Source: an uncultured Alphaproteobacteria bacterium (GTDB taxonomy: Bacteria; Pseudomonadota; Alphaproteobacteria; HIMB59). Taken from it: DNA of 64,000 nucleotides. The stretch spans positions 58,777-122,776 of the forward strand of contig CABYRL010000002.1 in NCBI GenBank assembly GCA_902521465.1, written 5' to 3'. Below the pieces are notes generated by a model. The model ran no database searches. It had not been told where the DNA came from and saw only the letters and a list, made by a program, of their open reading frames with translations. The stretch's first letter is position 1. Every line of letters starts with the position of its first letter. Of the stretch, positions 29,693 to 36,350 are shown piece after piece. A program made the translations under genes and the position numbers.

Positions 29693-32110
29693 ATGGAAAA
29701 TCAAATCATTGGACCCATTTTACCTTTAAGGGATTTAGTTGTTTATCCCTCTATAACCTCACCTTTGTTTGTTGGCCGAGCTAAATCTATTGATGCAATT
29801 AATTTTGCCATGAATAATAATAACAAGATTATTTATTTATTTACACAAAAAGAACCAACCACTGATGATCCCCAAGTTAACGATGTTTATTCCTACGGAG
29901 TAAAATCAAAAATTATTCAGTTTCTTAAGTTACCTGACAATACATATAAAGTTCTTACTGAAGGTTTAGAAATTGTGAAGATAAAGTCTGCTGTTAAGGC
30001 AAGTAATAACTTCCTTACAGCTAAAATTGAAACAGTAGTAATTAACAAAAAAAATTCAGTTGAATTAAAAGCCTCTTTGAGAGTCTTAAAAAATGAATTT
30101 CAAAACTATATACAAAATATAGGAAATAATAATGACATCCTTGAAGGGCTTTTAAATATTGAAGATCCATATCAGTTTATTGATAATATTTATTACAACT
30201 TAAATGTTGGAATTGAAGATAAACAAAAAAATTTAGAAATTATTGACATTAATAAAAAAATTCAAAATCTACTGAATTTCTTTTCAAAAGAACTCAACTT
30301 TTCTGCTCTTGAGAAAAAAATTAAAAATAGAGTAAAAAGACAAATGGAAAAAACTCAGAGAGAGTACTACCTAAATGAACAAATGAAAGCCATACAGAAA
30401 GAACTTGGTGATGGTGAAGACGGTTCTAACGAGTACTCTGAAATAGAGAAAAAGATTAATGAGGTAAAATTATCAAAAGAGGCAAAAGAAAAAGCTTTAA
30501 ATGAATTTAAAAAATTAAAATCTATGAGTCCAATGTCTGCTGAGGCATCTGTTATTCGTAATTACCTTGAATGGATATTAGATATACCATGGGAAAATTT
30601 CTCAAAAGAAGTTATAGACATAAAAGGTTCTGAAAAAATATTAAATGACGATCACTATGGTCTCGAAAAAGTAAAAGAGAGAATACTTGAATTTTTAGCA
30701 GTAAAAAAAAGATCAAAGAAAGCATCTGGTACAATACTTTGTTTTGTAGGACCTCCTGGTGTGGGTAAAACTTCATTAGGTAAATCTATAGCTAGAGCTA
30801 CTGGCAGAGAATTTGCAAAGATTTCTCTTGGTGGAATTAGGGACGAGGCTGAGATTAGAGGTCATAGAAGAACTTATATTGGCTCAATGCCTGGTCGATT
30901 TATTCAGGCTATGAAGAAAACCAAAACATCTAATCCTATTATTTTATTAGATGAAATTGACAAAGTGGGCAGTGACTGGAGAGGAGATCCATCCTCTGCA
31001 TTATTAGAAGTTTTAGATCCTGAGCAAAATAATCAATTTAATGATCATTATCTTGAGGTTGATTATGACTTATCAAATGTAATGTTTATATGCACAGGTA
31101 ATACTTACAACATACCTGGTCCTCTTCTTGACAGATTAGAGATCATTGAAGTATCTGGTTACACAGAAAAAGAAAAAGTTGAAATTGCCAAAAAATATTT
31201 AATTCCAAGAAAAATGAATAAAAATATCTTAAAAAATAATGAATTTAAGCTTGATAAAAGCTCAATTACCAAAATAGTAAGACACTACACCAGAGAGTCA
31301 GGTGTCAGAGGGCTCGAAAAAGTCTTTGATAAGCTTTTTAGAAAACTTGTTTTTCAATTAGAAAAAAATAAATCAAGGTCAAAAAAACCATTTGTATTTG
31401 ATGATAAAGCTATAAAAAATTTTTTAGGCCCAGAAAAATTTAAGGATAGTATTTTAGAAAAGAAAAATTTAGTTGGCATCACCAACGGGCTTGCATGGAC
31501 TCAGGTTGGTGGAGATATCTTAAATATTGAAGTTAATTTATCTTCAGGTAAGGGGATGATTAATGCAACAGGTAAACTTGGTGACGTGATGAAAGAGTCT
31601 ATTACTGCTGCTTTAGGTTACATTAAATCTAATTCCGTTGAGTTTGGAGTAAATCCAAAGGTCTTCGATAAAATAGATATTCATTTACATGTACCTGAAG
31701 GAGCTATACCTAAAGATGGTCCAAGTGCTGGAATTACAATATTTACCTCATTAATTTCATCTCTAACTGATATTAAAATTAAAAGAGACATTGCAATGAC
31801 TGGGGAAATTACATTAAAAGGAAGAGTTCTACCAATTGGGGGATTAAAAGAGAAATTATTGGCTGCGATAAGGTACGGTATTAAAACTGTTATAATACCA
31901 AAAGAAAATGAAAAGGACTTAGTTGAAATACAAAAAGACATTCAAAACAAGTTGATAATTAAGAAAGTCGAGTTTGCGAAAGAGGTATTGGACTTAGCTC
32001 TCGATGGAAAAATTAGTAAAATCAACAAAAAATTAGACTGGAGACACCTAGTTACAGAGTCTATGAAGCCAAAAAACCAGCAAAATCAAGAAAAAACATT
32101 CGTCAACTAG
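29693..32110 (+). CDS. lon: Lon protease
   Basis: LPLRD, GPPGVGKTS, RGHRRTYIG, PKDGPSAG, MTGE, IGGLKEK. Confidence 0.98.
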   Translation: MENQIIGPILPLRDLVVYPSITSPLFVGRAKSIDAINFAMNNNNKIIYLFTQKEPTTDDPQVNDVYSYGVKSKIIQFLKLPDNTYKVLTEGLEIVKIKSAVKASNNFLTAKIETVVINKKNSVELKASLRVLKNEFQNYIQNIGNNNDILEGLLNIEDPYQFIDNIYYNLNVGIEDKQKNLEIIDINKKIQNLLNFFSKELNFSALEKKIKNRVKRQMEKTQREYYLNEQMKAIQKELGDGEDGSNEYSEIEKKINEVKLSKEAKEKALNEFKKLKSMSPMSAEASVIRNYLEWILDIPWENFSKEVIDIKGSEKILNDDHYGLEKVKERILEFLAVKKRSKKASGTILCFVGPPGVGKTSLGKSIARATGREFAKISLGGIRDEAEIRGHRRTYIGSMPGRFIQAMKKTKTSNPIILLDEIDKVGSDWRGDPSSALLEVLDPEQNNQFNDHYLEVDYDLSNVMFICTGNTYNIPGPLLDRLEIIEVSGYTEKEKVEIAKKYLIPRKMNKNILKNNEFKLDKSSITKIVRHYTRESGVRGLEKVFDKLFRKLVFQLEKNKSRSKKPFVFDDKAIKNFLGPEKFKDSILEKKNLVGITNGLAWTQVGGDILNIEVNLSSGKGMINATGKLGDVMKESITAALGYIKSNSVEFGVNPKVFDKIDIHLHVPEGAIPKDGPSAGITIFTSLISSLTDIKIKRDIAMTGEITLKGRVLPIGGLKEKLLAAIRYGIKTVIIPKENEKDLVEIQKDIQNKLIIKKVEFAKEVLDLALDGKISKINKKLDWRHLVTESMKPKNQQNQEKTFVN

Positions 32111-32180: not shown

Positions 32181-32462
32181 ATGAACAAAAATGAACTCAT
32201 TGCTGAATATAGTACGAAAAATGGTGTTGGAAAATCAGATGCAACTAAGGCTGTAGAAAGTTTATTTGATATTATCACATCTACTTTGAAAGCAGGAGGG
32301 GATGTTAAGATTGCCGGTTTTGGTACTTTTAAGGTAGCTAACACAAAAGCTAAGACTGGAAGAAACCCAAGAACGGGAGAGTCAATCCAAATTCCTGCAT
32401 CAAAAAAGCCAAAATTTCTTGCTGGAAAACAGCTAAAAGAACTAATAAAGTCCACAGTCTAA
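32181..32462 (+). CDS. hup: DNA-binding protein HU
   Basis: MNKNELI, GFGTF, GRNPRTGE.IQIPA..KPKF.AGK.LK. Confidence 0.96.
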   Translation: MNKNELIAEYSTKNGVGKSDATKAVESLFDIITSTLKAGGDVKIAGFGTFKVANTKAKTGRNPRTGESIQIPASKKPKFLAGKQLKELIKSTV

Positions 32463-32480: not shown

Positions 32481-32556
32481 GGGCGATTAGCTCAGTTGGT
32501 AGAGCATCTCGTTTACACCGAGAGGGTCGGCGGTTCGAGTCCGTCATCGCCCACCA
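32481..32556 (+). tRNA. tRNA-Val(TAC)
   Basis: GGGCGAT/ATCGCCC acceptor, TCTCG-TTTACAC-CGAGA anticodon arm, ACCA; 76 nt. Confidence 0.97.
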
Positions 32557-32569
32557 TTCGACAATTGTC

Positions 32570-32647
32570 GGGGGTGTAGTTCAGTTTGGTTAGAACGCCT
32601 GCCTGTCACGCAGGAGGTCGCGGGTTCGAGTCCCGTCGCTCCCGCCA
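32570..32647 (+). tRNA. tRNA-Asp(GTC); integration target
   Basis: GGGGGTG/CGCTCCC acceptor, CCTGC-CTGTCAC-GCAGG anticodon arm, G73-CCA. Confidence 0.97.
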
Positions 32648-32650
32648 CTT
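32603..32650 (+). repeat. att-like repeat copy 1 (tRNA-Asp 3' half plus CTT)
   Basis: CTGTCACGCAGGAGGTCGCGGGTTCGAGTCCCGTCGCTCCCGCCACTT; starts at the first base of the anticodon loop. Confidence 0.95.
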
Positions 32651-32696
32651 TTATAAGGGAGTGGGTTATATTTTTCCTAACTTTTTCAATAGTTAT

Positions 32697-32782
32697 CTGT
32701 TCAACAAAAAAACATTGAATCAATAAACCATGTCGTCTAATTCCCTAAAATTTCTTTCTAGTGGTGAACATATGGTGAGCAA
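32697..32782. repeat. Left motif block: CTGTTCAACA, then GGTGAACA-TAT-GGTGAGCAA
   Basis: Mirrored by 35131-35215 (18/20 identity in the tandem pair; spacing 66 vs 65 nt). Confidence 0.7.
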
Positions 32783-32811
32783 AACCCCCCATGTACTTTT
32801 AGACAATAATA

Positions 32812-32976
32812 ATGGAAGTGATTTCAATGCAGAACAGATTTCCCAATCCCATACCCTATAGCTTTGGGAAATGGGAAAAGCCAAAGAAGGTTATCTGTAT
32901 TGCTTCAGAAATTAGAAAGTCACTTGAAGAGAGTGATCAAAAAGAACTACATAAACTATTTTGGAAGAGAGCATAA
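32812..32976 (+). CDS. 54-aa hypothetical protein (below ORF-track cutoff)
   Basis: MEVISMQNRFPNPIPYSFGKWEKPKKVICIASEIRKSLEESDQKELHKLFWKRA*; its TAA abuts the ATG of the next ORF. Confidence 0.5.
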   Translation: MEVISMQNRFPNPIPYSFGKWEKPKKVICIASEIRKSLEESDQKELHKLFWKRA

Positions 32977-33162
32977 ATGGATCGTTACTTATCGGACTAT
33001 GAAAAACTTCTTCATGAATACGAAAGGATTGAGTCAAAACTTAATAGCCTTTTTATTCAGACTGATCTATCAGAGTCAGCTAGAAAGAAGTTAGAAATAA
33101 GTTTGAAGAGAAGATTAAAAACACTACTACCTGAACTAAGAAAAAAAGAATTAGAAGTTTAA
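32977..33162 (+). CDS. 61-aa hypothetical helical/coiled-coil protein
   Basis: ORF track; amphipathic charged helix; TAAATG junction with the upstream ORF. Confidence 0.6.
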   Translation: MDRYLSDYEKLLHEYERIESKLNSLFIQTDLSESARKKLEISLKRRLKTLLPELRKKELEV

Positions 33163-33200
33163 TATCGTTTCTAGTTCATTCGTGTCGTTACTTAAATTCT

Positions 33201-33238
33201 TCCAAATTTGATGAATTTAATGCGAAATTAATTGAAAT
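33201..33238 (+). repeat. 38-bp direct repeat, copy 1
   Basis: TCCAAATTTGATGAATTTAATGCGAAATTAATTGAAAT; 37/38 identical to 34725-34762. Confidence 0.95.
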
Positions 33239-33249
33239 TGATTCAATTT

Positions 33250-34677
33250 TTACATTAAGTATTCTTCAAGCAAAGATATTGTTTTTTTTGCAGAATTAAT
33301 AGCCGCTTCATTGTTTCTTCCCTCTACGACCCCCCAATGCTCACATTCTTTTTTATAATCTTTGTAATGCTTATCAGCAGAAACATCCCAAGTATCGTAA
33401 TTATCTAAATGAATTACTTTATCTTCCATTCGCCACGTTCTTTTTCCATCCGCAGCAAGCCAGTATTTGCAATTTTTAGTTACTCTAAACCATTGATTTG
33501 AAAATTCTGCCTCATCCCAATTGCTCCATCCATCAAAGTTATGATGGGCGTTAGGAAAAATATCTATAGTTGCATTACCACCAAAATCGTTAAAGTTTTT
33601 TGCCATATCTTTACAAAATAAGGCAGGAGTAGTCTCATCCTTTTCACCTGTTAAAAAATGAATTTTATTTTTAGTTACACCCTGTTTATCTAAATATCTA
33701 CAATATGGATAAACTCCTATTCTTAATGCAAAATCATTTAAATTTTCATCATCAATTATTGGCTTTCTAATCATATCAAGACCAGTGTAAACTGCAGATG
33801 AACCACCCCAACTAAAACCCATTACCGCAATTTTTTCAGGATCTATTTTGGGATGAGATTGCATGTGCTTTAAACCATAGAGAGCGTCAGCTGCTCCCAT
33901 CCATGGTGTTAGTTTACTGCTGTTGCCTTGGATAATCATATTGTAAATACTGAGGCCTCGTGGAAGACAGCTATCAATCTCTAATGTAGCAACACCTGCT
34001 TTTTTTATATCCTGACCTAAAGTAAAATTTCTTTGCCCAAAGTCACAGGCAGAATTCATAATTAAAATCATTAAAGGATATTTTTCTTTTTGCTCTTGAG
34101 GGTAAGTTAAAAAACCCTCAATCGTATATTTTTGATCATTTTCAACACCATCTATAAAATCAATAGGAATTCTGGGAGTAAATGCTTCAAATTTAACATT
34201 CTCTGCTCGATAGAGCAGAGCATCGCAATTATTCCATTCATCAGTGACCTCAATATGATTATTGCTTGACATTTTCCCAAACCACTTCCTGGTATTATCC
34301 TTATCATCAACAGGCTCTTTGCTTACAATTTCGAAAGAATTCTCATTAACCTTAAATGATTTTATTTTGACTCTTCCTCCAAAAGATGGCCAAAGCCATT
34401 TTTCTTTTTTTATAATAACTTTTTTGGGATCTTTCTTATCTTTTTTGATAACTAGATCAATTACACCTTCAATAATTCCATTGCCTAACTCATAGCGTCC
34501 ATTCCATTCGCAATTAGCTAAACCTCTCCATCTCCCAATGATATTTGAGGATATTTCCTCAGATTTTAATACTTTATCTTCCGTTTTTTCATTGCCATCA
34601 ACTTGTTGCCCATCCTTAAAAGTAAGTCCCCAACTCAAACTAGGGATTAATAGTAATAGGGTGATAATTATTCTCAT
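33250..34677 (-). CDS. Secreted dienelactone-hydrolase-family alpha/beta hydrolase with extra N-terminal domain
   Basis: Signal peptide MRIIITLLLLIPSLSWG (ATG at 34677 preferred over 34713); IDPEKIAVMGFSWGG, GEKDETTP, FPNAHHNFD. Confidence 0.85.
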   Translation of the reverse strand: MRIIITLLLLIPSLSWGLTFKDGQQVDGNEKTEDKVLKSEEISSNIIGRWRGLANCEWNGRYELGNGIIEGVIDLVIKKDKKDPKKVIIKKEKWLWPSFGGRVKIKSFKVNENSFEIVSKEPVDDKDNTRKWFGKMSSNNHIEVTDEWNNCDALLYRAENVKFEAFTPRIPIDFIDGVENDQKYTIEGFLTYPQEQKEKYPLMILIMNSACDFGQRNFTLGQDIKKAGVATLEIDSCLPRGLSIYNMIIQGNSSKLTPWMGAADALYGLKHMQSHPKIDPEKIAVMGFSWGGSSAVYTGLDMIRKPIIDDENLNDFALRIGVYPYCRYLDKQGVTKNKIHFLTGEKDETTPALFCKDMAKNFNDFGGNATIDIFPNAHHNFDGWSNWDEAEFSNQWFRVTKNCKYWLAADGKRTWRMEDKVIHLDNYDTWDVSADKHYKDYKKECEHWGVVEGRNNEAAINSAKKTISLLEEYLM

Positions 34678-34724
34678 AAGATATATTATTGTACATAGTG
34701 GATTTAAAATCAAAACGAAATTTG

Positions 34725-34762
34725 TCCAAATTTGATGAATTTAATGCGAAATTAATCGAAAT
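34725..34762 (+). repeat. 38-bp direct repeat, copy 2
   Basis: TCCAAATTTGATGAATTTAATGCGAAATTAATCGAAAT. Confidence 0.95.
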
Positions 34763-35130
34763 ACTTCTCTATACAAATAAAATGCTCTCTCTATGAGGGG
34801 GTTATTAGGGTTATTTTGTTAATGTTTTCAATTGTTGATACGGAGTTCTTAGTAGTTTTTCCGTATTTCTCGCACAGAACTCTCCTAGGTAATGTAACCT
34901 TTTGTTACCCTGAAATGTTTACTTTTGTTAACTTTGAAAGCTACGCATAGGGGGGGTTCAAAATTACTAAAGGTACACTTTAATACATGTTTAACACGCA
35001 TTTTTGAATCGTAGGGTACGAAGTAAATGCTACCCCCGTAACAAGTTAACATCAGGCTAACACCATGCTCTATGATTCCTAAAACAGCGTTTCGCGGTGC
35101 ATGATCCATGGTCAAATATCAATGGATATT

Positions 35131-35215
35131 CTGTTCACCAATATTGGAATATTTGAATCATTATTTCGTAAAATGTGGTAGTGTTTCAGTAGAAAGGTGA
35201 ACACTTGGTGAGCAA
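35131..35215. repeat. Right motif block: CTGTTCACCA, then GGTGAACA-CTT-GGTGAGCAA
   Basis: Same order, orientation and spacing as 32697-32782; ends 60 nt before the distal att copy. Confidence 0.7.
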
Positions 35216-35275
35216 CTCTTATGGGTGTTTAAAAAGGCTTGGTAATATAGGCTTAAAACAACCTAGGATTCCTTA

Positions 35276-35323
35276 CTGTCACGCAGGAGGTCGCGGGTTC
35301 GAGTCCCGTCGCTCCCGCCACTT
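35276..35323 (+). repeat. att-like repeat copy 2 (displaced tRNA-Asp 3' fragment)
   Basis: 48/48 identity with 32603-32650; lacks the tRNA 5' half, so it is not a functional tRNA. Confidence 0.95.
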
Positions 35324-36350
35324 CAAAATATTCATTTCGTTTTTTTTAATTTTTTCTTTATTTTCATGTTCTTCTTATAAATCAAAAGATGTTCATGGAT
35401 TAAAGACACTTGGTATGAGCTTTGGCGATACAACAATTAAAGGTTTTAAAATTGACCCAGGTTGGAATGCTAGTTCAAAAGATGAAATAAAAAAATATCA
35501 AAGAAAAAAAAACTTGGTACTTTTTCAACTTCAGAAAGAGAAAACAAGATACGGAGATACTGCTTTTTTTATCCAAGCACCAGGAGATGAGTGTTATAAC
35601 AAATTAAAAGATTGCTCACGACCAAATGGTGAAAAACAAAAAAGAGTAGAGGTAGGAACCAATTATGGTTTTCAAGGAGAAATATGGTTATCTTATTCTT
35701 TTTTAATCACAGAAAATTACGAACTAAATAATGATAGCGCTATGAATAAATCAATATTGCAATTTCATAGCACAGAGAGTTTTTTTGGTCCTATGTTTAT
35801 GCTTCAAATAGACAAGAAGAAAGGTTTGCTTTGGAGACACGAATCTAGTGAGGGAGTTATTATTATTCAAGGAGGGAATGATGATTGCTCACCTGGTGCT
35901 GGAGGTCCAGAGGATACTGATAAAAGAATTTTTTGTGAAGCTAGGCATGATTGGTACCAAATAATATCTGCAAAAAATTTACAAAGAAATAAATGGTATG
36001 ATTTAGTCTTCAATATTAATTTTAATAAAAAGGATATTTCCAAAGCTTTTCATAAAATTTGGTTAAATGGAAAGTTATTGCATTACAGAAAAAACCAAAC
36101 ACTCTGGAAAGATCAAAAAGGTGTAAAAAACTCAGATAATTTGGCAAATTTTAAATTTGGTATTTATGGTTCAAGATTAGATGGCTCTTATCAATCTATT
36201 TATGCTGATGAAATCCACTTTGGAACTGAATGTAATGACCTTTTAATAGAAAATATTGGCTATCATTGTAGTAATCTAAAAAAACAAACAATAAATGAAT
36301 CATTTCCTATCTTTACAGAAGATAGAGTTGCTTATTATACTAGAGGATAA
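35322..36350 (+). CDS. Polysaccharide-lyase-like (heparin lyase I-type) lipoprotein; start codon unresolved
   Basis: Lipobox-like KIFISFFLIFSLFS-C; KRVE, ILQFH, KWYD, IWLNGK, FKFGIY, IYADE motifs typical of these beta-sandwich lyases. Confidence 0.7.
   Translation, partial: FKIFISFFLIFSLFSCSSYKSKDVHGLKTLGMSFGDTTIKGFKIDPGWNASSKDEIKKYQRKKNLVLFQLQKEKTRYGDTAFFIQAPGDECYNKLKDCSRPNGEKQKRVEVGTNYGFQGEIWLSYSFLITENYELNNDSAMNKSILQFHSTESFFGPMFMLQIDKKKGLLWRHESSEGVIIIQGGNDDCSPGAGGPEDTDKRIFCEARHDWYQIISAKNLQRNKWYDLVFNINFNKKDISKAFHKIWLNGKLLHYRKNQTLWKDQKGVKNSDNLANFKFGIYGSRLDGSYQSIYADEIHFGTECNDLLIENIGYHCSNLKKQTINESFPIFTEDRVAYYTRG

What the first reader, a model, noticed from the sequence alone, without database searches (positions are those of the whole stretch)
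32603..35323. 2.7-kb integrase-less islet inserted at the tRNA-Asp anticodon loop
Seen: an exact 48-bp duplication that begins on the first base of the 7-nt anticodon loop and runs 3 nt past CCA; the cargo is two tiny ORFs, a repeat-flanked hydrolase and about 0.5 kb of motif-rich non-coding DNA. Established: one class of tyrosine integrases crosses over in the 7-bp anticodon loop and leaves this footprint. Inference: a non-autonomous element mobilised in trans by a phage or island integrase, or an eroded prophage/satellite with intact att sites.
Basis: partly seen in the sequence, partly recalled or inferred. Interest (0 to 1): 0.7.

Follow-up and report, generated by a model that had tools for sequence, protein, structure and literature searches.

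The report
Decayed phage-satellite remnant at tRNA-Asp
The 2.7-kb islet is the gutted remnant of a 5.8-kb self-replicating, tRNA-Asp-integrating mobile element (a marine phage-satellite-like element) that has lost its integrase and replication genes but kept both attachment sites and picked up a secreted hydrolase gene; this is an ordinary fate for such elements, though this remnant has also spread between species.

Summary
An exact 48-bp repeat (32603-32650 / 35276-35323) runs from the first base of the tRNA-Asp anticodon loop to 3 nt past CCA. Close relatives (HIMB59/AEGEAN-169-type single-cell genomes) carry precise empty sites with one copy.

One relative (L008) holds the intact parent between the same repeats. 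It is 5.8 kb: tyrosine integrase, unknown gene, HTH_17 (AlpA/Xis-like), Toprim primase, AAA_25 helicase, two small ORFs, a single 45-bp site, 0.5 kb non-coding DNA. The window copy has a 4,654-bp deletion at a 6-bp microhomology (ATTTCC, 32838-32843) that removed integrase through helicase. It also has a 1,524-bp hydrolase cassette inserted at the 45-bp site.

Metagenome contigs show the intact element in its attP form, including a head-to-tail concatemer (period 5,807 bp).

Both arms of the islet keep matching GGTGARCA motif clusters.

The same deleted derivative sits in a genome whose backbone is only about 80% identical while the islet is 97-99% identical. So it moved horizontally after decay. 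Whether a sibling's integrase or homologous recombination moved it is unresolved.

It is a new member of a known kind (VEIME/tycheposon-like satellites; behaves like a CIME). Interest is moderate to low.

The parts
32570..32647 (+). Intact tRNA-Asp(GTC); its 3' 45 nt form most of attL
   Evidence: ARAGORN; Rfam tRNA 68.8 bits
32603..32650 (+). attL core: left copy of the exact 48-bp repeat (anticodon loop to CCA+3)
   Evidence: Empty-site relatives carry a single copy
32651..32843 (+). P arm of the parent element. Identical to the P arm in the free attP form L081. Carries TGTTCAAC (32698-32705), GGTGAACA (32763-32770) and GGTGAGCA (32774-32781), which are putative arm-type integrase sites. Contains the 5' stub of the integrase ORF (32730-32843)
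32838..32843 (.). Deletion junction. The 6-bp microhomology ATTTCC joins integrase codon 38 to the sequence just after the helicase stop. 4,654 bp are missing relative to L008 (int, 365-aa unknown, HTH_17, Toprim primase, AAA_25 helicase)
   Evidence: The same junction occurs in L001, L003, L010, L018, L103, L107 and L112
32812..32976 (+). 54-aa ORF. Residues 10-54 match the small ORF that follows and overlaps the helicase end in the intact element. The first 9 codons are a by-product of the deletion
32977..33162 (+). 61-aa conserved small ORF of the element family (helical, no family match). The exact protein is listed in 392 blocks of the public collection
33194..33238 (.). Left copy of the 45-bp repeat (cargo-slot site)
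   Evidence: Present as a single copy in all hydrolase-free intact elements
33250..34677 (-). Cargo: secreted alpha/beta hydrolase (dienelactone-hydrolase family) with a signal peptide. The GxSxGG Ser289, Asp347 and His379 are invariant among homologs. It is the body of a 1,524-bp nested insertion
   Evidence: Pfam DLH 4.9e-08; homologs; alignment A3; absent precisely at the 45-bp site in L008
34718..34762 (.). Right copy of the 45-bp repeat, immediately upstream of the hydrolase start
34763..35110 (.). Conserved non-coding block of the element. It has G-rich boxes, GTAAC-N5-GTTAC palindromes, TTTTGTTAM repeats and a G-run at 34950-34956 whose length varies between copies. Candidate origin or regulatory/packaging region; function not shown
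   Evidence: alignment of 8 element copies. Indels break the only ORF. RNA contigs cover 34894-35139 in 3 metatranscriptomes. Weak folding z-scores
35111..35275 (+). P' arm. It is conserved even in elements whose upstream cargo is unrelated. Carries TGTTCACC (35132-35139), GGTGAACA (35196-35203) and GGTGAGCA (35207-35214), in the same order and spacing as in the P arm
35276..35323 (+). attR core: right copy of the 48-bp repeat (a tRNA-Asp 3' half with no 5' half)

Best explanation
The islet is a deletion derivative of a 5.8-kb integrative, self-replicating element of HIMB59/AEGEAN-169-type marine alphaproteobacteria. The element resembles a phage satellite of the VEIME/tycheposon kind.

The parent element carries a P4-type tyrosine integrase (arm-binding domain plus catalytic domain), an AlpA/Xis-like HTH_17 protein, a Toprim primase and an AAA_25 helicase. 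Its attP holds the 3' 45-48 nt of tRNA-Asp, from the first anticodon-loop base onward. Integration therefore regenerates the tRNA (attL) and leaves a 3'-half copy (attR).

In the window's lineage two later events occurred. A 4,654-bp deletion between two ATTTCC hexamers removed integrase through helicase. A 1,524-bp cassette encoding a secreted hydrolase recombined into the element's 45-bp cargo-slot site, duplicating that site.

What remains is both att cores, both arms with their repeated GGTGARCA/TGTTCACC motifs, two small ORFs, the cargo gene and the 0.35-kb conserved non-coding block. On its own the islet cannot excise, replicate or integrate. It can move only if a sibling element supplies Int and Xis (in trans, or in cis after tandem integration), or by homologous recombination.

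Shown: the anatomy, the empty sites, the intact parent, the free/concatemeric attP form of the parent, and horizontal spread of the deleted derivative. Inferred: crossover in the anticodon loop, the motifs being arm-type Int sites, the non-coding block being an origin or packaging/regulatory region, and helper-phage dependence.
For: (1) The exact 48-bp repeat lies at the tRNA-Asp anticodon-loop boundary.
(2) Seven relatives with 95-98% identical backbones join window 32650 directly to 35324 through a single 48-mer. Six more join tRNA-Asp directly to nuoA.
(3) L008 has int (Arm-DNA-bind_3 1.3e-11, Phage_integrase 1.5e-10, phrog_1 3.5e-33), HTH_17, Toprim and AAA_25 between the same repeats. It is collinear with the window except for the deletion and the hydrolase. 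L105, L109 and L111 are further intact copies.
(4) Catalytic residues R336, K359, R422, H444 and Y454 are invariant in the integrase family.
(5) attP forms exist: L081, L094, L096, L099 and L100. One 18,881-bp contig (L091+L093) has attP cores at an exact 5,807-bp period, 3.25 units that are 98-99.9% identical. L106 also holds more than 2 units.
(6) Five of the seven GGTGARCA sites in 64 kb lie in the two arms, against 1.75 expected in the whole window. The arms share a module of about 100 bp.
(7) The family also includes a 10.7-kb cargo-carrying tRNA-Asp element (L086) and a 5.8-kb tRNA-Lys element (L087) with free 5.9-kb forms (L088, L089). In both, the repeats start at or within 3 nt of the anticodon loop.
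(8) The deleted derivative with the identical junction is present in 7 distinct single-cell genomes.
Against: No attP or circular form of the deleted derivative itself was found. The 28-mer junction had 0 hits in JGI metagenome contigs. Logan contigs break at the 48-bp repeat, so they cannot show joints. The element was not found in IMG/VR viral contigs, and the nearest cultured-phage integrases are only 22-27% identical. The satellite lifestyle, meaning packaging by a helper phage, therefore rests on analogy with VEIMEs and on the concatemeric contigs, whose sample fraction is unknown. The integrase ORF of L008 has a 68-aa N-terminal extension that more distant homologs lack. The 38-codon 'integrase stub' may therefore be untranslated P-arm DNA.
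Confidence: 0.85

Rival explanations
1. Active hitchhiker. The integrase-less islet is still a working mobile unit, like a CIME or a mini-satellite. A co-resident or incoming intact sibling supplies Int and Xis (and possibly replication and packaging). The islet is then excised and integrated through its intact attL/attR and carries the hydrolase between cells.
For: Both att cores are exact and both arms keep their motif clusters. L018 has a backbone only 79-83% identical to the window (lon 81.2%, nuoAB 82.7%, nuoCD 78.8%), yet it carries the same deletion junction and the same hydrolase at 97.5-99.4% identity. In L018 the tRNA-Val/tRNA-Asp spacer is of its own lineage type (GATATTAATC, as in L019-L021). 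The sequence right after its attR remnant is the L019-type native flank. The shared segment is therefore bounded by the att sites. Intact siblings circulate in both lineages (L008, L111). CIMEs are an established precedent (PMC6323972).
Against: No circular or attP form of the deleted derivative was seen, and no tandem islet-plus-intact array (no locus has three cores apart from the concatemers). The last ~450 bp of the L018 islet are only 85-96% identical and mosaic, sharing an 11-bp deletion with L090 and a patch with L095. Its attR core is mutated. Recombination with resident elements is therefore an equally good route. Three of the seven carriers (L003, L107, L112) have lost attR altogether.
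Confidence: 0.3
2. Inert scar spread only by homologous recombination. The islet is dead DNA. Its appearance in a divergent lineage came from RecA-dependent exchange, using the perfectly conserved tRNA genes on the left and a resident related element or the 48-bp core on the right.
For: The only long tracts of perfect identity between the two lineages are the tRNA genes and the element sequences. The right-hand part of the L018 islet is mosaic. The interval is a recombination-prone hypervariable island with many rearranged remnants (L003, L005, L016, L023, L095, L107, L112).
Against: It needs crossovers inside very short tracts (78 bp or less on the left). The att-bounded outcome is exactly what site-specific integration gives. 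Both arms remain intact in four carriers.
Confidence: 0.45
3. Eroded true prophage rather than a satellite-like element.
For: tRNA integration with a phage-type integrase; the PHROG hits are to integrase, excisionase and primase/helicase families.
Against: The intact sibling is only 5.8 kb and has no capsid, tail, terminase or lysis genes. Its free form has the same size (5,807-bp period). There are no matches in IMG/VR or INPHARED beyond distant integrases.
Confidence: 0.04

Closest known systems
VEIMEs, virion-encapsidated integrative mobile elements / marine phage satellites (Eppley et al. 2022, PMC9618062)
   Same: The intact sibling is a small monomer (5.8 kb; VEIMEs range from under 5 kb to 16.8 kb). 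It has a tyrosine integrase, an AlpA-like regulator and a primase/helicase, with no capsid genes. It is integrated in oligotrophic marine Alphaproteobacteria single-cell genomes and occurs as head-to-tail concatemers in environmental assemblies.
   Different: Virion encapsidation was not tested here, because the sample fraction of the concatemer contigs is unknown. The window copy is a gutted derivative without integrase or replication genes. About 20% of VEIMEs lack an identified integrase according to the paper, but those were found packaged.
Tycheposons of Prochlorococcus (Hackl et al., bioRxiv 10.1101/2020.12.28.424599)
   Same: tRNA-proximal hypervariable island. Elements flanked by a full and a partial tRNA. 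A tyrosine recombinase plus a replication module plus optional cargo (L086 carries 5 kb of cargo). Degenerate remnants with fragmented integrases and partial tRNAs lie in the island.
   Different: A different host phylum. Whether the integrase belongs to the tycheposon integrase clade was not tested.
CIMEs, cis-mobilizable elements derived from ICEs (definition in PMC6323972)
   Same: The integration (and transfer/replication) genes are lost, but attL and attR are kept intact. Mobility could be regained through a related autonomous element.
   Different: The parent is not conjugative, as the intact sibling has no conjugation genes. No tandem accretion was observed.
P4-like satellites and Gram-negative PICIs (own knowledge plus the summary in PMC9618062)
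   Same: A P4-type integrase with an arm-binding domain, an AlpA-like HTH protein, primase/helicase replication, and integration at a tRNA 3' part.
   Different: Primase and helicase are separate genes. No homologs of Psu/Sid/Delta, terS or capsid-remodelling genes were detected. The element is about half the size of P4.
Anticodon-loop sublocation class of tRNA-integrating tyrosine recombinases (Williams 2002 from own knowledge; summarised in bioRxiv 10.1101/2020.11.02.365908)
   Same: [quoted passage not shown] The anticodon stem provides flanking symmetry. attP keeps CCT of the 5' stem arm (CCTTA against CCTGC).
   Different: The crossover point was not mapped. For the tRNA-Lys relative the identity starts 3 nt before the loop.

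Membership tests
tRNA-integrating tyrosine-recombinase element (anticodon-loop class) | Direct repeats made of the tRNA 3' part, starting at the anticodon loop, with the intact tRNA at one end | tested here: met
   48-bp exact repeat from loop base 1 to CCA+3
tRNA-integrating tyrosine-recombinase element (anticodon-loop class) | Precise empty site (attB) in relatives and an attP form of the element | tested here: met
   Empty alleles L002, L004, L006, L007, L009, L012 and L013. attP in L081, L091, L094, L096, L099 and L100, for the intact sibling only
tRNA-integrating tyrosine-recombinase element (anticodon-loop class) | Element-encoded tyrosine integrase with the catalytic R-K-R-H-Y residues | tested here: not met
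   Absent from the window islet; only a 38-codon stub remains. Present and intact in the sibling L008. The islet is therefore a derivative, not an autonomous member
VEIME / marine phage satellite | Packaged as concatemers in virions | tested here: inconclusive
   Concatemeric contigs of the intact sibling exist, but their physical fraction is unknown. Nothing was found for the deleted islet
VEIME / marine phage satellite | Small integrative element with int, AlpA-like and primase/helicase genes and no capsid genes, integrated in bacterioplankton genomes | tested here: met
   L008, L105, L109 and L111. Met for the parent, not for the window copy
Tycheposon | Integrase belongs to the tycheposon tyrosine-recombinase clade | not tested
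   No tycheposon integrase sequences were at hand
Tycheposon | Sits in a tRNA-proximal variable island, flanked by full and partial tRNA, with a replication module and optional cargo | tested here: met
CIME | Lacks integration and transfer genes but retains intact attL and attR | tested here: met
CIME | Derived from, and mobilised by, an integrative conjugative element | tested here: not met
   The parent element has no conjugation genes
P4-like satellite / PICI | Capsid-size redirection or packaging genes (sid/psu/delta, terS, cpm/ppi) | tested here: not met
   No such Pfam or PHROG hits in the intact sibling. The 365-aa protein and the small ORFs have no match

The most novel reading that the evidence does not exclude
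The integrase-less islet is a functioning 'satellite of a satellite'. It would be a minimal hitchhiker that keeps only the att arms and the 0.35-kb non-coding block (origin and/or packaging signal) of its 5.8-kb parent. The parent's Int and Xis, replication proteins and virion route would copy and move it between HIMB59 species, ferrying a secreted hydrolase cassette that docks at a dedicated 45-bp cargo slot.
Probability: 0.25. Interest if true: 0.6.

Novelty: new member of a known kind. Interest (0 to 1): 0.35.

Why it matters
The finding gives a clean natural series at one locus of a very abundant, genome-streamlined ocean bacterium. The series runs: empty site, intact 5.8-kb element, free or concatemeric form, cargo-carrying form, gutted derivative, and further eroded scars. 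This documents how tRNA-proximal flexible islands are built from satellite-like elements outside cyanobacteria and SAR11 proper. It also shows that a derivative without any recombinase can still cross a species-level boundary (about 80% nucleotide identity) while carrying an ecologically plausible gene, a secreted esterase-type hydrolase. The arm motifs and the 45-bp cargo slot are concrete, testable DNA sites. It does not reveal a new kind of system.

Tried and rejected
1. IMG/VR viral contigs gave 0 hits for the 48-mer, for the 45-bp site core and for the L008 integrase protein.
2. A JGI metagenome scan for the 28-nt deletion junction gave 0 hits, so there was no power to find an attP form of the deleted derivative.
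3. Reads were laid on the islet from four DNA runs. Only Logan contigs were available, and they break at the tRNA and 48-bp repeats. No informative joints resulted, only depth differences: the islet is a minority allele, and in run X3 the non-coding block is about 30-fold rarer than the hydrolase.
4. Rfam found nothing in the non-coding block. The two sub-threshold 'HPnc0260' hits and the 'tmRNA' hit are just the antisense or partial tRNA-Asp copies.
5. RNA folding of 34880-35145 gave z = -0.6 (+ strand) and -1.8 (- strand), so there is no convincing structured RNA.
6. The promoter/terminator scan was at background level. TTTTGTTAM repeats are not enriched window-wide, although three cluster at 34814-34931.
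7. The 76-aa ORF at 34885-35115 (-) was rejected as a gene. It has no family hit, and the G-run and indels vary among near-identical copies.
8. PDB sequence search with the integrase gave no hit.
9. An integron-cassette or transposon origin for the hydrolase was considered. No transposase is present, the flanking repeat is 45 bp (too long for a target-site duplication), and the single-copy site in hydrolase-free elements is a left/right recombinant of the two copies. This fits a reciprocal crossover at a shared 45-bp module. The enzyme responsible is unknown.
Full report
**Observation.** tRNA-Val (32481-32556) and tRNA-Asp(GTC) (32570-32647) follow lon (29693-32110) and hupB (32181-32462). An exact 48-bp direct repeat lies at 32603-32650 and 35276-35323. 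It starts on the first base of the anticodon loop (CTGTCAC) and ends 3 nt past CCA. Between the copies lie:
- small ORFs at 32730-32861, 32812-32976 and 32977-33162;
- a minus-strand 475-aa dienelactone-hydrolase-family protein with a signal peptide (33250-34677; Pfam DLH 4.9e-08);
- 45-bp direct repeats flanking that gene (33194-33238 and 34718-34762);
- 513 bp of non-coding DNA (34763-35275).

Downstream come a polysaccharide-lyase lipoprotein ORF (to 36350) and nuoA-D. No integrase or other element gene lies elsewhere in the 64-kb window.

**Organism and population context.** A scan of species-representative genomes with the HU protein returned 25 close relatives. All are marine single-cell or metagenome-assembled genomes of the HIMB59/AEGEAN-169 type. 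The tRNA-Asp to nuoA interval is highly polymorphic among them:
- Six relatives join tRNA-Asp directly to nuoA (L015, L019, L020, L021, L024, L025).
- Seven have tRNA-Asp, then the lyase gene, then nuoA, with window 32650 joined to 35324 through one 48-mer (L002, L004, L006, L007, L009, L012, L013). These are precise empty sites on backbones 95-98% identical to the window.
- Four carry the islet (L001, L003, L010, L018).
- Others carry unrelated cargo.

**The parent element.** L008 carries 5.8 kb between the same repeats (46 bp exact there). Its left 240 bp and right 960 bp are collinear with the islet. Its genes are, in order:
- a 487-aa tyrosine integrase (Arm-DNA-bind_3 1.3e-11, Phage_integrase 1.5e-10, phrog_1 3.5e-33);
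- a 365-aa protein with no family match;
- a 77-aa HTH_17 protein (AlpA/excisionase-like);
- a Toprim primase;
- an AAA_25 helicase.

After these come the homologs of the window's 54-aa and 61-aa ORFs, one copy of the 45-bp site, the same non-coding block, and attR. Further intact copies are L105, L109 and L111. In an alignment of nine family integrases, R336, K359, R422, H444 and Y454 are invariant. L008 and its closest relative have a 68-aa N-terminal extension that the others lack, so the true start may be Met69.

**How the window copy differs.** Two events separate it from L008. First, a 4,654-bp deletion whose ends share ATTTCC (window 32838-32843) removes everything from integrase codon 38 to the helicase stop. 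If Met69 is the real start, the deletion begins 91 bp upstream of the integrase gene. Second, a 1,524-bp insertion carries the hydrolase and one extra copy of the 45-bp site. The single site in hydrolase-free elements has the left copy's 5' variants and the right copy's 3' variant, as expected for a reciprocal crossover within the shared 32-bp core. The hydrolase keeps an invariant GxSxGG serine, an aspartate and a histidine. The same 45-mer plus 5'-UTR plus signal-peptide start precedes other secreted cargo genes. Examples are a lyase paralog in L003 and a second cassette start in L114, where the hydrolase sits beside an integrase-bearing variant. The 45-mer therefore marks a cargo slot or cassette boundary.

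**Free forms.** A metagenome contig found through the integrase (L081) reads helicase, orf61, non-coding block, core, P arm, integrase. This is the attP arrangement, and its P arm is identical to the window's attL flank. A metagenome scan for the P'-end plus core returned 11 loci. L094, L096, L099 and L100 are attP forms. L091 and L093 are two halves of one 18,881-bp contig with attP cores at an exact 5,807-bp period. That makes 3.25 units, 98.3-99.9% identical to each other. L106 also holds more than two units. The intact element thus exists excised, as circles or head-to-tail concatemers. This is the hallmark reported for virion-encapsidated integrative mobile elements of marine bacteria (PMC9618062). 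More distant family members are a 10.7-kb cargo-carrying element at tRNA-Asp (L086) and a 5.8-kb element at tRNA-Lys (L087) with 5.9-kb free forms (L088, L089). Their repeats start at or within 3 nt of the anticodon loop.

**The att arms and the non-coding DNA.** Five of the seven GGTGARCA sites in the 64-kb window lie in the islet: 32763, 32774, 35132 (minus strand), 35196 and 35207. The expected number for the whole window is 1.75, and none of 100 shuffles reached seven. Each arm has the same layout, TGTTCAMC, then about 57 nt, then GGTGAACA-N3-GGTGAGCAA. I read these as arm-type sites for the integrase's arm-binding domain; this is inference. The last ~165 bp before attR are conserved even in elements whose upstream content is unrelated (L090, L095, L097, L098). 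The remaining ~350 bp are conserved only within this element type. They contain short palindromes and a G-run of variable length, which rules out the 76-aa ORF there. Rfam finds nothing in this block and folding is unremarkable. Low-depth metatranscriptome contigs from three runs cover 34894-35139. An origin, a packaging signal or a regulatory transcript are all possible, and none is shown.

**Spread after decay.** The identical deletion junction plus the hydrolase occurs in seven distinct single-cell genomes. In L018 the backbone is 79-83% identical to the window (lon 81.2%, nuoAB 82.7%, nuoCD 78.8%). The islet's left part is 99.4% identical and the hydrolase 97.5%. The tRNA-Val/tRNA-Asp spacer of L018 is its own lineage's type. 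The DNA right after its mutated attR is the native flank seen in the empty L019-L021 genomes. The derivative therefore entered a different species after it had lost its integrase, and the shared segment ends at the att sites. However, the last ~450 bp in L018 are mosaic at 85-96% identity, with patches shared with other element variants. Recombination with resident elements is thus a real alternative to integrase-mediated capture. No attP form of the deleted derivative was found. The tests had little power, because there were 0 junction hits in JGI contigs and the Logan contigs break at the repeat.

**Comparison with known systems.** The parent fits the description of VEIMEs (marine phage satellites) and resembles tycheposons. 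Those are tRNA-proximal islands holding elements with a full and a partial tRNA flank, a tyrosine recombinase plus a replication module, optional cargo, and degraded remnants. It lacks the capsid-redirection and terS genes of P4-like satellites and PICIs. The window copy behaves like a CIME in keeping its att sites while losing its recombination genes, but its parent is not conjugative. The repeat geometry matches the anticodon-loop class of tRNA integration sites (Williams 2002 from my own knowledge). The integrase has no close relative among cultured phages (22-27% identity).

**Verdict.** It is a new member of a known kind. Interest is moderate to low. The one point worth following up is whether the integrase-less derivative is still moved by its sibling.

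Noticed in passing
window 35205-36350 (also L002, L004, L006-L009, L012, L013): The polysaccharide-lyase ORF has a typical lipoprotein signal (…FISFFLIFSLFSC, Cys codon at 35367-35369) that starts immediately after the tRNA CCA. This frame is conserved across alleles despite many substitutions and no frame-breaking indels. There is no ATG/GTG/TTG between the tRNA end and Met at 35409. The only in-frame canonical starts lie inside the tRNA-Asp gene (TTG at tRNA nt 17 in empty-site alleles) or, in the window, in the element's P' arm (TTG 35205, GTG 35208). Either the gene uses a non-canonical start (a conserved ATT/ATC Ile codon) or its 5' end overlaps the tRNA. The islet insertion changes its upstream context.
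   Followed up: partly
L005, L010, L011, L014, L016, L022, L023 (interval tRNA-Asp to nuoA): The interval is a hypervariable island. Contents include a giant repeat protein (over 2,351 aa in L010; 6,319 aa by the gene call in L110; also in L016), an Mrr-cat/ResIII restriction-like helicase (L005), a glutaminase-ankyrin protein with pseudopilin-like genes (L023), and other lyase-like or unknown secreted proteins (L011, L014). L005, L016 and L023 keep only the first ~130-190 bp of the element's P arm.
   Followed up: partly
L095 (JGI Ga0181580_10194866): An even smaller islet of 1.18 kb lies between tRNA-Asp and an attR half-tRNA in an L020-type backbone. It has one unrelated minus-strand ORF plus only the ~220-bp P' arm, and the P arm is gone.
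   Followed up: partly
L091+L093 (FUFK010041992.1, 18,881 bp); L106 (ERZ26695794 ctg467544, 14,627 bp): These contigs consist of more than 2-3 head-to-tail units of the intact 5.8-kb element with no chromosomal flank. The units differ by 0.1-1.7% and the first contig contains 66 N. The sample type is unknown.
   Followed up: partly
window 34894-35139: Low-depth contigs from three independent metatranscriptome runs cover this part of the non-coding block. The small-ORF region 32694-33163 has none. DNA carry-over cannot be excluded, the contigs have no strand information, and it is unknown whether the reads come from intact elements or from islets.
   Followed up: partly
window 34718-34762 and 34632-34717; L003 12517-13571; L114 2149-2278; L014 2190-3470: A shared 5' module precedes different secreted cargo genes: the hydrolase, a polysaccharide-lyase paralog and a 426-aa unknown. 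The module is the 45-mer, about 40 nt of leader, and a signal peptide of the form M..LLLLIPSLSWGLTFKDGKQV. This suggests cassette shuffling by recombination at the module.
   Followed up: partly
L008 5473-5676 and window 32730-32843: The annotated integrase ORF of the tRNA-Asp subfamily has a 68-aa N-terminal extension absent from homologs at 41-55% identity. The extension overlaps the putative arm-type sites. It is conserved as an open frame in P0002 and as a remnant in L023, so it is unclear whether it is translated.
   Followed up: no
window 32609-32759 and 35282-35429 (minus strand), 35263-35310: The sub-threshold Rfam hits (HPnc0260, tmRNA) are explained by the antisense or partial tRNA-Asp sequence and are not separate RNAs.
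   Followed up: yes
Read-laying run X3, window 32756-35263: In one marine metagenome the islet's left part and the hydrolase have contig depth ~110-180, while the non-coding block has ~3. There the dominant carrier is an attR-less variant (L003-like) rather than the window form.
   Followed up: no
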